Shown here piece after piece: positions 6,257-14,971 of a stretch of DNA of 64,000 bases. The DNA is taken from contig CAURIK010000003.1 of assembly GCA_963525145.1 (NCBI GenBank), positions 1,040 through 65,039 on the forward strand. Reading direction: 5' to 3'. Source of the DNA: an uncultured Candidatus Saccharibacteria bacterium. GTDB lineage: Bacteria; Patescibacteriota; Saccharimonadia; Saccharimonadales; Saccharimonadaceae. Numbering within the stretch: the first letter of the stretch is position 1; every line of letters starts with the position of its first letter. Made by a program: the position numbers and the translations under genes. The notes under the pieces were generated by a model, which was not told where the DNA came from, made no database searches, and saw only the letters and a program-made list of their open reading frames with translations.

Positions 6257-8014
6257 CTACTCTCTCGGGGCTAATTTTAAGTATTTTATCATCCAGTTGG
6301 ATATATCGTTGAAAATAGGCTTGGCATCCGAGCCGCCGCCCATACCGCGGCCGTCTGCCGCTATCTCTACCATGATAACGTAACGCGGAATTTTGCCGTA
6401 TTCGCCGCCAAAACCCAGATAGGTACCAATCGTCTCGTTATCATCATACTTGCCGTTAACAATCACCTGCGAAGTACCGGTCTTGCCGCCGACTAGCCAG
6501 CGTTCCGAGTCGTCATGCGGCTTATATGTCGCATAATGAGCCTGATGTACCATTTCGCGCACTGTCTGCGACGAGGCTTCACTGATAGCGGGAGCACTGG
6601 CTTTTTGCGCCGCTGCCGTAAATTTGCCATTACTATCCATTGTACCGTTAATCACCGTCGGCATGTGATATGTACCGCCATTAACCACCGAACAAAAGCC
6701 GCTCGCCACCTGGATCATCGTCACATTCATACCCTGGCCAAACACCATATTACTGTAACGCACGGCATTACCTTCTTGCTGTGCTGGCGAAATAACTGTG
6801 CCGCCCGCCTCATTCGCCAGCTCAATACCAGTCAGCTGCCCCAGTCGGAAACGATTATAAAAGTAATCATAAATCGTATCGCGAGCGCCGCGAGTAATAT
6901 AAGAACCATTTCCCAGTCGCTGCGCAATCGTCACCATACCAGTATTCAGCGACCAGTTCAGCGCTGTCTGCATAGTGATGTCACCGTTCAAGAAACTATT
7001 TTTCGAAGCGTTATTAATCGTGATGTCTTCAACCTTGATTTTGCCAGTATTATTGTAAGTACTCTGCGGCGAGATAACGCCTTTGTCGATTCCGGTCGCT
7101 ACCGTGAAAGTCTTGACATCAGAGCCCGCTTCGTACGGATGTGAAATCGTATCGTTGTTAAAGACCGACACGTCAGAAGTATTGATATTCGACGGATCGT
7201 ACGTCGGCATATTAGCCATTGCCAGCACTTTGCCAGTACTTGGCTCCATGACAATAGCGCTTGCTCTGGTGGCTTTACTGCGCTTAGCACCAGCCTCAAG
7301 CGCTGATTCGACTTGTGTCTGAATATTACGATCAATCGTCAAAACAATACTCCGTCCATTTACTGCCGGCTGGCGGACATTCTTATCACCAATTGTCAGC
7401 GGTACGTCGCGAGCGTCCGTCACCGTTTTGAGCATACCGTCGCGCCCAGACAGAGTTTGGTTATTAGCTTGCTCGAAGCCATATACTCCTTTACCCTCGT
7501 GATTAACAAAACCCAAAACCTGGCTAGCCAATCGTCCTTCAGGATAGACCCGGCGCGTTCCAACTTCGAAACCGATACCCGCTAGCTTTTTCTTCTTGAT
7601 TAATTCAGCCTGAGTCCGCGTAATATATTTCGTCAAAATTTGGTAGCGGCTAGGTTTTTTGTCGATCAACGCCGCGAAACCATCAACTACGTTGCCGCCA
7701 GCGACGCTATTCAGCGTATCTACCACCGCCTGCTTGTCAGACACCTGTGTTGGATCTGCCCAAACTTTATAGACAGTCTCGTTCATCACTAGCGGCTTCG
7801 GATCACTGCCATCCATAGCATAAATCTCGCCGCGCTGCGCTTTGAGCGTGAATTTCTTGATCTGTTCATTATCGGCTTGCTTTACATAGTAATCATGCCG
7901 CACTACCTGCACTACAAAAAGCTGCACTACAAAAATGGCCGAGACGACCAACACTATACTAAACAAAAAGCCAACTCTCGAGCGTCGAATAAAACGAGTT
8001 GGCGATACGCTCAT
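6257..8014 (-). CDS. ftsI: class B penicillin-binding protein (FtsI/PBP2 family)
   Basis: N-terminal TM, RGEI, R.YP.G, SDVK (SxxK), SLN (SxN) and KTG motifs; dcw context. Confidence 0.9.
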   Translation of the reverse strand: MSVSPTRFIRRSRVGFLFSIVLVVSAIFVVQLFVVQVVRHDYYVKQADNEQIKKFTLKAQRGEIYAMDGSDPKPLVMNETVYKVWADPTQVSDKQAVVDTLNSVAGGNVVDGFAALIDKKPSRYQILTKYITRTQAELIKKKKLAGIGFEVGTRRVYPEGRLASQVLGFVNHEGKGVYGFEQANNQTLSGRDGMLKTVTDARDVPLTIGDKNVRQPAVNGRSIVLTIDRNIQTQVESALEAGAKRSKATRASAIVMEPSTGKVLAMANMPTYDPSNINTSDVSVFNNDTISHPYEAGSDVKTFTVATGIDKGVISPQSTYNNTGKIKVEDITINNASKNSFLNGDITMQTALNWSLNTGMVTIAQRLGNGSYITRGARDTIYDYFYNRFRLGQLTGIELANEAGGTVISPAQQEGNAVRYSNMVFGQGMNVTMIQVASGFCSVVNGGTYHMPTVINGTMDSNGKFTAAAQKASAPAISEASSQTVREMVHQAHYATYKPHDDSERWLVGGKTGTSQVIVNGKYDDNETIGTYLGFGGEYGKIPRYVIMVEIAADGRGMGGGSDAKPIFNDISNWMIKYLKLAPRE

Positions 8015-8027
8015 GATCTTAGAACTC

Positions 8028-8378
8028 CTATTTGCTTACATACTGAGTATCAGCCGGGGTAGCCATCCTTTGAGCAACGCTGCTGTCTTTAACTGATTGC
8101 AGAGCTGTAAGGCGAGCATTCTCAACCGCCAAATCGCTCTTCTGTTCGGTCAACGTCGAAATTTTATTACTGACGTCATTTGACTCATAATCATAGCCCG
8201 AAACACTCCCCGCTTGTGTTAAGTATAACAGACCTAGCAGCGTCAAGAGAAGCGCAATAATAATCGCATTAGAAATCGGGCCGAGTTTGATAGCCGATGC
8301 AAAAGCAACTGTATTGCGGTTGCGCCCATAATTACCTTGGCGCCGGCTATTAAATTGTGTAGTTCGTGAATATGACAT
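8028..8378 (-). CDS. ftsL: FtsL-like cell division protein
   Basis: 116 aa, single TM followed by coiled coil, between rsmH and ftsI. Confidence 0.7.
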   Translation of the reverse strand: MSYSRTTQFNSRRQGNYGRNRNTVAFASAIKLGPISNAIIIALLLTLLGLLYLTQAGSVSGYDYESNDVSNKISTLTEQKSDLAVENARLTALQSVKDSSVAQRMATPADTQYVSK

Positions 8379-8581: not shown

Positions 8582-9472
8582 TTATATTTTCACAGCGACA
8601 CGAAGCTTAGCACTTCGCGAGCGCGGATTGTGAACATCTTTAATAGCTCCATCGACAGGATGCTTCGTAACAATACGAAGCTCCGCCTCGTAGCCGCTTT
8701 TGGCCTGTTCGGTAAAGTATTGCTTAACAATACGATCCTCCAGGCTATGAAAGCTAATTACACCGACTCGCCCGCCCTGCGACAACAGCTCGGGTAATAA
8801 TGGCATAATCGCTCGTACTTGCTCAAGCTCATCGTTTACAAAAATCCGAATCGCCTGAAAAGTACGTGTCGCCGGATGCGTTCGCTGGCGCCGTCCGACG
8901 TACGCCCTCAAGATAGCCGATGCTAAATCTTCAGTTGTCGCCAGCGGTCTAGCCTTAATAATCGCAGCAGCATAACGCCGCGCAATATTTGGCCGCTCTT
9001 CGCCGTAATCGCGAATAATCCGCTCCAGCTCGCCCTGCGAATAGGTGTTAACCACCTGCTCTGCAGTTAAAGCTTGCCGCCGATCCATCCGCATATCCAG
9101 CGGACCGCTATGCGAAAATGAAAATCCTCGCTCAGCCCTATCAAGCTGTGGTGACGACACCCCCAAATCAATCAATATCATATCAAACCGCTTACCTATA
9201 GCAATCAACTGCCGGGCAGCGCTGACAAAATCAGCGTGTATTAACTCTGCCCCTTTGCCGACAAATGCCGCTAGGTTTGCTTGTGCAAATTCATCGCGAT
9301 CAACCAAAGTCATTCCGCGATAATTATGCGTTCGTTCGACAATGGCGCCCGCGTGTCCGCCGTATCCAGCCGTCAGGTCGAGATAACTCTCGCCATCTTT
9401 AGGATTAAGCAACCGCACAACGTCATCAAGTAATACCGGAACATGAAGTGGTGGATGTTCTTTAATACTCAT
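8582..9472 (-). CDS. rsmH: 16S rRNA m4C1402 methyltransferase
   Basis: HVPVLL, D.TAGYGGH, DLGVSSPQLD, HPATRTFQAIRI, SFHSLEDRIVK and NPRSRSAKLR; start MSIKEH 6 nt after TGgTATGAT. Confidence 0.95.
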   Translation of the reverse strand: MSIKEHPPLHVPVLLDDVVRLLNPKDGESYLDLTAGYGGHAGAIVERTHNYRGMTLVDRDEFAQANLAAFVGKGAELIHADFVSAARQLIAIGKRFDMILIDLGVSSPQLDRAERGFSFSHSGPLDMRMDRRQALTAEQVVNTYSQGELERIIRDYGEERPNIARRYAAAIIKARPLATTEDLASAILRAYVGRRQRTHPATRTFQAIRIFVNDELEQVRAIMPLLPELLSQGGRVGVISFHSLEDRIVKQYFTEQAKSGYEAELRIVTKHPVDGAIKDVHNPRSRSAKLRVAVKI

Positions 9473-9504
9473 TCCCCCATCATACCACATGGTCTGATAG
9501 AGGT

Positions 9505-9967
9505 CTCGAGATCACCAATCCGATAGCGAGCTGTTTGTTTTCGCATAGGTGTGTTTGTTTTAGTTTAGTCAAGTATGCTTAAAATCAAGAGCTGTCAAAC
9601 AACTCATATCGTATTTAGCATACCTTTGAGAGACTTGTGTGTGAGGTGGAGTTTTTGGGAGGTGTTGTGTTAGAGGAAAGAACTTTCGACAATTTTAGCG
9701 TGGGTCGATATTCCACTGCTCACTATCAGGTTGTTGATCTCGAGGATGTCCAACTTCGAATTGTAAAAGTACCACAAACTATACGGCTACGCGCCCAAAG
9801 ACAGCGTCGCCCGCGATACGTAAGCATCAGGTACGCAAACCAAGACGCCCGCCCTACCGTACATAGATTGGCTAATAGCTGCGTCAGTCATGACTACCCT
9901 ACTTTCTTTTGTTATTTTACGCGGTGGTGTTTGTTTTAGCTCGAGAATTTCTCTTGCCTTTGCCACT
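9505..9967 (-). ncRNA. candidate large structured non-coding RNA (family unrecognised)
   Basis: Promoter TTGCAC-18-TATGAT upstream; long hairpin 9866-9779; 27-bp helix 9744-9718 with 9531-9505 enclosing hairpins at 9708-9686 and 9623-9573; AAAACAAACA three times. Confidence 0.5.
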
Positions 9968-9973
9968 GGCTTT

Positions 9974-10003
9974 ATCATACAACGTTTCATCATGCTTGTG
10001 CAA
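9974..10003 (-). promoter_or_regulatory. sigma70-type promoter (TTGCAC-N18-TATGAT)
   Basis: Near-consensus hexamers pointing into the non-coding region. Confidence 0.5.
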
Positions 10004-10036: not shown

Positions 10037-10058
10037 TTTTCCACAAAAACGTGGAAAA
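10037..10058. promoter_or_regulatory. inverted pair of DnaA-box-like sites
   Basis: TTTTCCAC-N6-GTGGAAAA; TTTTCCACA fits TTWTNCACA, the opposite copy has one mismatch. Confidence 0.45.
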
Positions 10059-14747: not shown

Positions 14748-14894
14748 CTCCTTTCTATCTGCCCCGCTTGAGGCCAAGAAAGGAGCCGCAAAGACAATAT
14801 CTCTCCTGGTCAAGCAGGCTGGAATTAGCACCTTGCTGCAAAAGCAGGTTGCCGGCGAGTCATCAGGCCAGTCCCTCGTCGCACTCTGGATATT
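14748..14894 (-). ncRNA. SAM-I riboswitch with SD-sequestering expression platform
   Basis: AAUAUCCAGAG..GAGGGACUGGCCUGAUGA..GGCAACC..GGUGCUAAUUCC..AGAUAUU aptamer (14894-14796) upstream of metK; CUCCUUUCU pairs with the SD AGAAAGGAG. Confidence 0.9.
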
Positions 14895-14971
14895 AAATTA
14901 TTAACAAGTTCATTATAGCACGCCCCACCCCGCCGAATCTAGATTGACAGCAAAAACAGCCAAGGCTGTAG

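What the first reader, a model, noticed from the sequence alone, without database searches (positions are those of the whole stretch)
9490..10003. Candidate ~460-nt structured ncRNA in the mraZ position ahead of the dcw cluster
Seen (minus strand): a promoter TTGCAC-18-TATGAT. A ~90-nt hairpin at 9866-9779 (UACGG/CCGUA, AGGGC-G-GGCGUC/GACGCU-GUCUU, UGCGUA/UACGUA) has several G-U pairs that work only on this strand. A 27-bp long-range helix (9744-9718 with 9531-9505; 23 Watson-Crick, 2 G-U, 2 mismatches) closes a 240-nt domain containing hairpins at 9708-9686 and 9623-9573. Unpaired C/A-rich linkers carry AAAACAAACA three times (9532, 9552, 9928) and AAAAC..CCACC, against the local strand skew. 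rsmH has its own extended -10, so this unit may be separate. Established: mraZ normally sits here, and no MraZ ORF is present. Inference: an unrecognised RNA (oversized 6S-like topology or a protein sponge) whose linker motifs recur before ftsL, suggesting an RNA-based system regulating cell-division genes.
Basis: partly seen in the sequence, partly recalled or inferred. Interest (0 to 1): 0.78.

Follow-up and report, generated by a model that had tools for sequence, protein, structure and literature searches.

The report
Phage-mimicked RNA inside cell-division operon
A 240-base folded sequence that matches no catalogued RNA family sits just before the first essential cell-division genes in nearly all Saccharibacteria sampled; it is likely a stand-alone regulatory RNA whose exposed, almost unchanging core is predicted to pair with a second small RNA, and phages carry copies of exactly that core.

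Summary
The 5' half (9967-9775) is the normal dcw promoter and leader plus a short ORF where mraZ was lost in this sub-lineage; its 90-nt hairpin is no better than shuffles. The 3' half (9744-9505, 'RNA-A') is a real, conserved structured RNA: a 27-bp closing helix with strong covariation, an H-type pseudoknot, a near-invariant single-stranded C/A-rich core, a variable hairpin and two A-rich boxes, preceded by a boxA-like motif. It has no Rfam match, is single-copy (not a MITE), and is found in 144 of 151 genomes of the class, between mraZ and rsmH wherever context was read, but not convincingly in 143 other Patescibacteria. Two new links: (1) a separate sRNA behind khpA ('RNA-B') is complementary to the core's 3' end, and that site is intact in 102 of 104 genomes with RNA-B but only 15 of 42 without; (2) ten phage loci carry the whole core, the eight examined without the helix or dcw genes, some with their own promoter and terminator. 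Best reading: an RNase III-released, trans-acting docking/sponge RNA. Expression, processing and ligand are untested.

The parts
10037..10058 (.). Inverted pair of DnaA-box-like 9-mers upstream of the promoter (label from recalled consensus)
   Evidence: Sequence; similar inverted pairs by eye in relatives; not counted
9974..10003 (-). sigma-70 promoter of the dcw operon (-35 10003-9998, -10 9979-9974); predicted start near 9967
   Evidence: same position in relatives, where mraZ-bearing genomes show GTGG repeats over it and mraZ-less ones do not (by eye)
9892..9967 (-). dcw leader with A/C-rich box at 9937-9923; this is the mraZ leader of relatives
   Evidence: only the leader aligns to mraZ-bearing relatives
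9787..9891 (-). 34-codon ORF in the slot of the lost mraZ; same length and related peptide in G036/G022, unrelated 11-35-codon ORFs in other mraZ-less congeners
9759..9772 (-). boxA-like motif 5' of RNA-A, resembling the motif in the rRNA leader of relatives
   Evidence: by eye and loose regex; no enrichment statistic was obtained
9505..9744 (-). RNA-A, the conserved structured RNA (240 nt)
9718..9744 (-). P1 5' arm
   Evidence: 19 of 26 pairs with two-sided change, 92.5% of cells paired
9686..9716 (-). H-type pseudoknot: stem 1 9716-9713 with 9703-9700; stem 2 9708-9704 with 9690-9686; A-rich loop 3
   Evidence: 100% paired in 13 sequences, 3 of 5 stem-2 pairs with two-sided change; across the class
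9625..9683 (-). Single-stranded core: box 0 (9683-9677), C-rich box 1 (9666-9657), A-run, C-rich box 2 (9651-9641, the class-wide invariant part), RNA-B site (9641-9625). This is the part copied by phages
9571..9624 (-). Variable hairpin domain (about 18 to over 100 nt in relatives)
9532..9561 (-). Two A-rich boxes (9561-9552, 9541-9532), kept in all 34 aligned sequences
9505..9531 (-). P1 3' arm; in 12 of 19 loci from other orders its SD-like hexamer lies 7-10 nt before the rsmH start
9472..9489 (-). Extended -10 and start codon of rsmH (leaderless arrangement, shared by several members of this family)
8582..9472 (-). rsmH (MraW methylase family), first gene of rsmH-sORF-ftsL-ftsI-mraY-ftsW-murG-ftsQ
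   Evidence: PF01795; downstream gene names from sequence likeness and order

Best explanation
The stretch 9744-9505 is a conserved folded element between mraZ and rsmH that is likely a trans-acting regulatory RNA, predicted to be cut out of the dcw transcript at its 27-bp closing helix by RNase III and to display a single-stranded core as a docking (sponge) site. Steps: (1) shown: fold, conservation, position, single copy. (2) inferred: transcription from the dcw promoter, Nus-factor loading at the boxA-like motif to help the distant helix arms meet as in rRNA precursors (Rho is absent, so antitermination is not needed), and RNase III cleavage, which in orders where the 3' arm carries the rsmH ribosome-binding site would also free that site. 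(3) supported by comparative data, not by experiment: the sRNA RNA-B behind khpA pairs with the core's 3' end, entering by its unpaired 3' tail and opening its own short stem, and so switches RNA-A off or changes its turnover. (4) inferred: the C-rich boxes, which stay fixed even where RNA-B is lost, titrate a host factor; the likeliest is a C/A-reading RNA-binding protein such as the KH protein KhpA (about 0.3), next G-rich ribosome-binding sites of mRNAs (about 0.2). (5) inferred: phages express the bare core as a decoy to hijack this circuit.
For: Covariation of P1 (0 of 500 shuffles, slid controls 26-49% paired against 92%) and of the pseudoknot. 144 of 151 class genomes, 99 of 105 outside the own order; rsmH downstream in 58 of 59 and 20 of 20 loci read. 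Kept unchanged where mraZ is lost and where rsmH has its own leaderless promoter downstream, so it is not only a leader for either gene. RNA-B: 108 of 201 order genomes by pattern, control 2, beside khpA or trmD in 48 of 48 loci, own promoter and terminator, own covarying fold. RNA-B site intact in 102 of 104 RNA-B-positive against 15 of 42 RNA-B-negative genomes; altered forms fall in 13 families and need 6 changes for 7 rows on an RsmH tree. Other orders lack both the site and RNA-B (0 of 5). 21 cognate duplexes of -15 to -22 kcal/mol, at most 2 of 200 shuffles as good each. 10 of 120 phage loci score strongly; the 8 examined keep all boxes in order but have no mraZ/rsmH and no closing helix, lie among phage genes and L288 has an 11-of-12 promoter and a terminator around the core. 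NusB, RNase III and KhpA are encoded beside RNA-B; no Rho in 5 complete genomes.
Against: No expression or processing data. Full-length cofolding of RNA-A with RNA-B gives no net energy gain, so pairing needs a chaperone or co-transcriptional access. Cognate duplexes are not better than permuted ones (-17.25 against -17.53 kcal/mol); only one column shows a two-sided change (2 of 58, both in one genus). This genome's own clade has an altered RNA-B site yet keeps RNA-B (offset by a longer perfect duplex on the other side). Part of RNA-B's complementary stretch is already explained by its own stem. The RsmH tree is weakly resolved and kin are not independent. No terminator follows RNA-A, so without cleavage it is only part of the mRNA; in 12 of 19 other-order loci it covers the rsmH ribosome-binding site, which fits a cis role. 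The boxA match was not tested statistically. KhpA binding is pure inference, and no KhpB Jag_N domain was found in 5 genomes.
Confidence: 0.5

Rival explanations
1. RNA-A is a cis-acting element of the dcw mRNA: P1 hides the rsmH ribosome-binding site (or sets a cleavage site), and binding of a protein or of RNA-B to the inner core decides expression of rsmH-ftsL-ftsI. Phage copies titrate that regulator.
For: Fixed position; SD-like hexamer of the 3' arm 7-10 nt before the rsmH start in 12 of 19 other-order loci; no terminator; the actinomycete mraW motif at the same junction is classed as cis-regulatory (Weinberg 2010, PMC2864571, table row and supplement passages).
Against: In the own order the start lies 13-137 nt beyond the arm in most loci where it could be placed, and several family members, this genome included, give rsmH a separate leaderless promoter while the core stays invariant. 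Not exclusive with the best explanation.
Confidence: 0.22
2. RNA-A is a C-rich-seed sRNA that pairs with G-rich Shine-Dalgarno regions of many mRNAs (RsaE/RoxS or 6C style, recalled), with RNA-B as its sponge.
For: Three boxes are complementary to SD-like sequences; SD motifs are in use in this genome; a second C-rich-loop RNA beside dprA shares two of the boxes.
Against: No second site complementary to the class-invariant 13-mer in an untranslated region with a conserved role turned up in the own genome; the best extra match lies in the dprA-linked RNA, where it can pair within that RNA; many genes here are leaderless.
Confidence: 0.12
3. RNA-A is the missing RNA-polymerase-binding RNA of this class (6S or Ms1-like).
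For: Closed by a long terminal helix; no Rfam 6S match in 5 complete genomes, while tmRNA and an RNase P-like gene are present elsewhere.
Against: No 6S hit at the locus; the unpaired region is about 75 plus 35 nt with a pseudoknot, and the distal stem ranges from about 18 to over 100 nt; phages keep the single strand and drop the helices that a promoter mimic needs.
Confidence: 0.07
4. The core imitates the 16S rRNA stretch around C1402 (or the 16S 3' tail) and binds RsmH or a ribosome-maturation factor as a feedback switch.
For: Box 1 resembles the 16S stretch around the RsmH target (8 of 9 bases, numbering and 16S sequence recalled); an earlier agent proposed the same for an unrelated Acidimicrobiia element at this junction (e1-2347216, unchecked).
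Against: Box 1 is not kept outside the order; the partner strand of helix 44 is not present; low-complexity A/C sequence resembles easily; complementarity to 16S h41 and 23S H94 is not conserved.
Confidence: 0.06
5. A MITE or other mobile repeat, or a decayed mraZ.
For: Terminal inverted repeat; mraZ missing here.
Against: Single copy; G-U-rich, covarying arms; same place in the whole class with intact mraZ upstream in 17 of 20 other loci.
Confidence: 0.01

Closest known systems
UpsM and StsR of Rhodobacter sphaeroides (PMC5089854 and PMC8266604, abstracts and section lists read)
   Same: A roughly 200-nt structured RNA born from the dcw transcript, bound by a separate sRNA, linking RNA processing to cell division. 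This is what it most likely works like.
   Different: UpsM lies before mraZ, ends at its own terminator and is cut by RNase E with Hfq; RNA-A lies after mraZ, has no terminator, is closed by a long helix, has a pseudoknot and boxA-like motif, no Rfam or sequence match, and phage copies.
mraW RNA motif, RF01746 (Weinberg et al. 2010, PMC2864571; table row and supplement passages)
   Same: Structured RNA just before mraW/rsmH with a conserved pyrimidine-rich unpaired motif.
   Different: A single hairpin of about 100 nt with a 7-nt loop in Actinomycetales; no match of RF01746 to RNA-A loci; no pseudoknot or partner sRNA described.
Pre-rRNA boxA plus leader-trailer helix (Nus factors, RNase III; PMC5725501 passages; PMC4807359 and PMC10250234 seen only as search listings)
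   Same: boxA-like motif followed by one arm of a long helix that encloses the product; NusB and RNase III present.
   Different: Here the enclosed RNA is about 190 nt inside an mRNA; cleavage is not shown.
Protein-titrating sponges (CsrB/RsmZ) and C-rich sRNA with sponge pairs (RoxS/RosA, 6C) - recalled, no call
   Same: Repeated short motifs displayed unpaired; antagonist RNA.
   Different: No GGA loops; no Rfam match; ligand unknown.
6S RNA (RF00013)
   Same: Ends joined by a long helix; the family is not detected elsewhere in 5 complete genomes.
   Different: Bubble far larger, pseudoknotted, distal stem not length-conserved.

Membership tests
Any Rfam 15 family | Covariance-model score at or above gathering threshold | tested here: not met
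   best E 0.088; 10 homologous loci, none at E 0.5 or better
6S RNA | RF00013 match | tested here: not met
6S RNA | Rod with a central bubble of about 15 nt between two length-conserved stems (recalled) | tested here: not met
6S RNA | Binds RNA polymerase holoenzyme and templates pRNA | not testable with these tools
   Needs experiment
mraW RNA motif (RF01746) | Position directly 5' of mraW/rsmH | tested here: met
mraW RNA motif (RF01746) | Single hairpin with the conserved 7-nt pyrimidine loop; model match | tested here: not met
UpsM/StsR | Lies in the 5' UTR before mraZ and ends at an intrinsic terminator | tested here: not met
UpsM/StsR | A separate sRNA base-pairs with the dcw-derived RNA | tested here: inconclusive
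   Co-loss supports it; cofold and permutation do not add support
tmRNA / RNase P RNA | tRNA-like ends with tag frame, or RNase P core motifs | tested here: not met
   True tmRNA at G000:C5:48265-48660 and an RNase P-like gene at C5 about 45130; core spacers vary by non-multiples of three
MITE | Several genomic copies with target-site duplication, variable position | tested here: not met
RNase III-processed RNA | Helix of two or more turns, conserved in length; enzyme present | tested here: met
RNase III-processed RNA | Mapped rnc-dependent cleavage | not testable with these tools
   No RNA reads available

The most novel reading that the evidence does not exclude
Saccharimonadia have a lineage-defining, housekeeping-level RNA, made like a miniature rRNA (boxA, processing helix) from inside the cell-division operon, whose invariant single strand is the hub of an RNA circuit controlling division of these epibionts: a dedicated partner sRNA switches it, and phages counterfeit its active strand as a stand-alone decoy. 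No such phage-mimicked, operon-internal RNA hub was found in the searches made.
Probability: 0.35. Interest if true: 0.92.

Novelty: new variant of a known kind. Interest (0 to 1): 0.82.

Why it matters
Saccharibacteria are the only cultivable and now genetically tractable Patescibacteria (PMC10633639, passages), and a 2022 transcriptome preprint stated that no small RNAs were validated in TM7x. An RNA whose core is nearly letter-perfect across an order, whose fold is class-wide, that survives loss of mraZ, co-evolves with a second sRNA and is copied by phages is likely central to how these ultra-small epibionts regulate division. It gives concrete handles: two RNAs, a predicted duplex with testable compensatory mutants, a predicted processing helix, and natural phage mimics that mark the functional 60 nt.

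Tried and rejected
Core pairing with rRNA: a 12-nt complement in 23S H94 occurs only in G049 and is not conserved in about 30 other 23S loci; the 16S h41 complement is in 3 of 5 genomes. Other 'second sites' of the core's 3' end: 3 of the 20 fetched are not coding-region chance hits (two RNA-B loci, one 23S). Genome-wide complement scan gave no standout mRNA target. The dprA-linked RNA as a second partner: complementary 10-mer is conserved, but it can pair inside that RNA, and no syntenic equivalent on the right strand was seen in 5 distant genomes. MraZ operator reading of the core: core unchanged in 20 of 36 congeners lacking mraZ. 34-codon ORF as a mraZ remnant: no alignment beyond the leader. 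A lax pseudoknot search did not discriminate well (55 of 59 against 783 of 1180 controls); the stricter one gave 37 of 55 against 31.7% of cross pairs, with stem 1 mis-picked in many rows. Sequencing runs: no RNA holder listed; no read data were obtained. RNA-B not found in 10 phage loci. Literature searches found no description of this RNA or of RNA-B; the library lacks most subscription journals and bioRxiv supplements were closed, so motif lists in unseen supplements could hold it. boxA enrichment and likeness of P1 to the 23S processing stem remain untested.

Full report
What is there. The window's minus strand carries yvcK-like CofD-family gene, a 640-nt gap, then rsmH-ftsL-ftsI-mraY-ftsW-murG-ftsQ. 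Rfam finds nothing in the gap (only a SAM riboswitch at 14794-14896; best E 0.088). The stretch is single-copy. A DNA search hit 59 of 61 genomes of the order, the distant hits all on about 40 nt at 9666-9625 with 88-95% identity. In 58 of 59 loci rsmH follows (the 59th ends at a contig edge).

Relatives show promoter, leader, an intact mraZ, then the conserved element, then rsmH. MraZ is in 38 of 61 genomes: 22 of 24 other families, 16 of 36 congeners, not in this genome. In mraZ-less congeners the slot holds short ORFs of 11-35 codons; here a 34-codon ORF at 9891-9787 with a related peptide in G036/G022. The proposed 90-nt hairpin is matched by 99 of 300 shuffles and is not conserved. So 9967-9775 is leader plus deletion scar.

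RNA-A (9744-9505). It folds at z = -6.5. A closing duplex was found in 36 of 36 loci. On 34 aligned sequences the closing helix is 92.5% paired with two-sided changes at 19 of 26 pairs; 0 of 500 shuffles reach this and slid registers give 26-49%. An H-type pseudoknot follows: 100% paired in 13 congeners, 3 of 5 stem-2 pairs with two-sided changes; across the class stem-2 sequences differ completely yet pair (37 of 55 at 4 or more Watson-Crick pairs against 31.7% of 2970 cross-species pairs; a lax version was uninformative). Then come an unpaired core, a freely varying hairpin domain and two A-rich boxes. A boxA-like motif lies 5' of the helix and resembles the one in the rRNA leader of relatives (seen by eye, not tested statistically; E. 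coli-type consensus from PMC5725501 passages).

Range. The core pattern is in 172 of 201 order genomes. A covariance model of the 5' half hits 144 of 151 class genomes, 99 of 105 outside the order; 20 loci read all precede rsmH, 17 with mraZ detected upstream, and keep helix, pseudoknot, box 0, box 2 and A-rich boxes. In 143 genomes of other Patescibacteria only 2 weak hits appear and they look like chance; 10 rsmH upstream regions of other classes give none. This is 'not found with this model', not absence.

RNA-B. The 3' end of the core recurs, reversed, at G000:C1 about 123660-123783 (minus), between khpA and trmD in the nusB-rnc-rpsP-khpA-trmD cluster. It is a small RNA gene with its own promoter, which moves with it when it separates from khpA, and a terminator. 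It is in 108 of 201 order genomes by pattern (control 2), next to khpA or trmD in 48 of 48 loci, with a covarying fold (87% paired) and an unpaired, nearly invariant 3' tail. An earlier agent had reported this sRNA (e1-2235085); the pairing was not mentioned in the lines shown.

Does RNA-B pair with RNA-A? Of the RNA-A cores listed (26 matches were not listed; three chance second matches and one chance row were dropped), 117 have the site intact and 29 altered. RNA-B was found by pattern in 86 and 2. A model search of the pattern-negative genomes added 16 of 31 intact ones and 0 of 27 altered ones, giving 102 of 117 against 2 of 29; put the other way, the site is intact in 102 of 104 genomes with RNA-B and 15 of 42 without. 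Altered forms occur in 13 families and need 6 changes for 7 rows on an RsmH tree of 28 rows, though only 5 of 25 branches are well supported. Other orders lack the site and RNA-B (0 of 5). Isolated duplexes are -15 to -22 kcal/mol in 21 genomes. Against: full-length cofolding shows no gain, cognate pairs are no better than permuted ones because both strands hardly vary, only one column has a two-sided change (2 of 58), and this genome itself, not among the listed rows, is a further exception with an altered site and RNA-B. I put the pairing at about 0.7.

Phage copies. The model scores 8 of the first 80 and 2 of the other 40 strongly. The 8 examined keep box 0, both C-rich boxes and the start of the RNA-B site in order, but have no mraZ or rsmH and no closing helix (best duplex -11 to -19 kcal/mol against -30 to -39 in 6 host loci). 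Neighbours in two of them are endopeptidase/lysis, transglycosylase and RecE-like genes. L288 has an 11-of-12 promoter before and a terminator after the core; L295 has a 9-of-12 promoter. Two of the 8 are near-identical. None carries RNA-B within the fetched flank. Phages thus appear to express the bare single strand, which is the best evidence that the core works in trans and that the helix is packaging.

Cis or trans. In 12 of 19 other-order loci the 3' arm's SD-like hexamer lies 7-10 nt before the rsmH start, so the helix would hide the ribosome-binding site; in the own order the start is usually further off, behind A-rich tracts, and in this family rsmH often has its own leaderless promoter (leaderless starts are common here). 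The element is kept through both changes and through mraZ loss. A cut in the helix would release the inner RNA and, where relevant, free rsmH, so the two roles can coexist. NusB, RNase III and KhpA are present; Rho, KhpB Jag_N and Rfam 6S were not found in 5 complete genomes each; tmRNA and SmpB are elsewhere.

Mechanism, with odds. Real conserved structured RNA 0.97 (shown by covariation). Works in trans 0.65 (phage copies, independence from flanking genes). Released by RNase III with Nus help 0.5 (anatomy only). RNA-B pairs 0.7. Ligand of the C-rich boxes: protein such as KhpA 0.3, mRNA ribosome-binding sites 0.2, RNA polymerase 0.07, RsmH 0.06, other or unknown the rest. KH-domain preference for C/A-rich single strands is recalled knowledge; papers on KhpA and sRNAs were seen only as listings.

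Known systems. It works most like UpsM with StsR (abstracts) but fails their defining position and terminator. It shares the position of the mraW motif but not its model or fold. Earlier agents reported differently built RNAs at this junction in Acidimicrobiia (unchecked), so the junction seems to attract RNA regulators repeatedly. Ten literature searches found no account of RNA-A; the TM7x preprint passage says no small RNAs were validated, and the Cell 2023 genetics paper has no passage with mraZ, rsmH, ncRNA or small RNA. No RNA reads could be examined, so expression is open.

Verdict. A new, class-wide RNA family with a probable partner sRNA and phage mimics; a new variant of the known kind 'dcw-derived regulatory RNA with sRNA partner'. 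Interest 0.82.

Noticed in passing
window 8560-8486 (minus), between rsmH and ftsL: Conserved small ORF of about 18-25 codons, mostly with a strong SD, in the rsmH-ftsL gap of the 21 order genomes printed (alternating V/I and K/R pattern), followed by a strong hairpin and an A-rich tract before the ftsL start. Probably unannotated.
   Followed up: partly
G000:C1 about 123660-123783, minus (L070:1688-1762): RNA-B, sRNA between khpA and trmD in the rimM slot; no Rfam match; lost in several families.
   Followed up: yes
G000:C9 about 7900-8150, minus (L519), divergent from dprA: Third ncRNA of about 250 nt with promoter, terminator and C-rich loops sharing two boxes with RNA-A; 32 distinct dprA-linked metagenome loci of 68 distinct matches; no Rfam match. 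Already noted by earlier agents.
   Followed up: partly
L288, L291, L295, L303, L314, L325, L338, L356, L374, L389 (IMG/VR): Phage-borne copies of the RNA-A core; L314 also has a reversed copy of the core's 3' end about 130 nt downstream.
   Followed up: partly
window 9891-9787 (minus): 34-codon ORF replacing mraZ; equal length and related peptide in G036/G022; start and stop positions mimic those of mraZ.
   Followed up: partly
window 14896-14794 (minus): SAM-I riboswitch before metK (Rfam 70.4 bits).
   Followed up: no
whole genome G000: Many genes look leaderless: a -10 hexamer peaks 12-14 nt before the start among 441 long ORFs.
   Followed up: no
L538 (G039) and L539 (G086): Intergenic 5' hairpins just after promoter-like sites, L538 followed by a terminator; possible further small RNAs. 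A short GCGA-containing loop motif recurs in RNA-B, rRNA leaders and the dprA-linked RNA.
   Followed up: no
L450 (G245) and L458 (G255), other Patescibacteria classes: mraZ-rsmH gaps of about 200 nt with A-rich tracts or a short C-rich stretch; no model hit, possibly distant analogues.
   Followed up: no
G019:C1 255601-259163 and 286148-287888: Arrays of repeats with about 444-nt period seen as regularly spaced pattern hits; probably a repeat protein gene.
   Followed up: no
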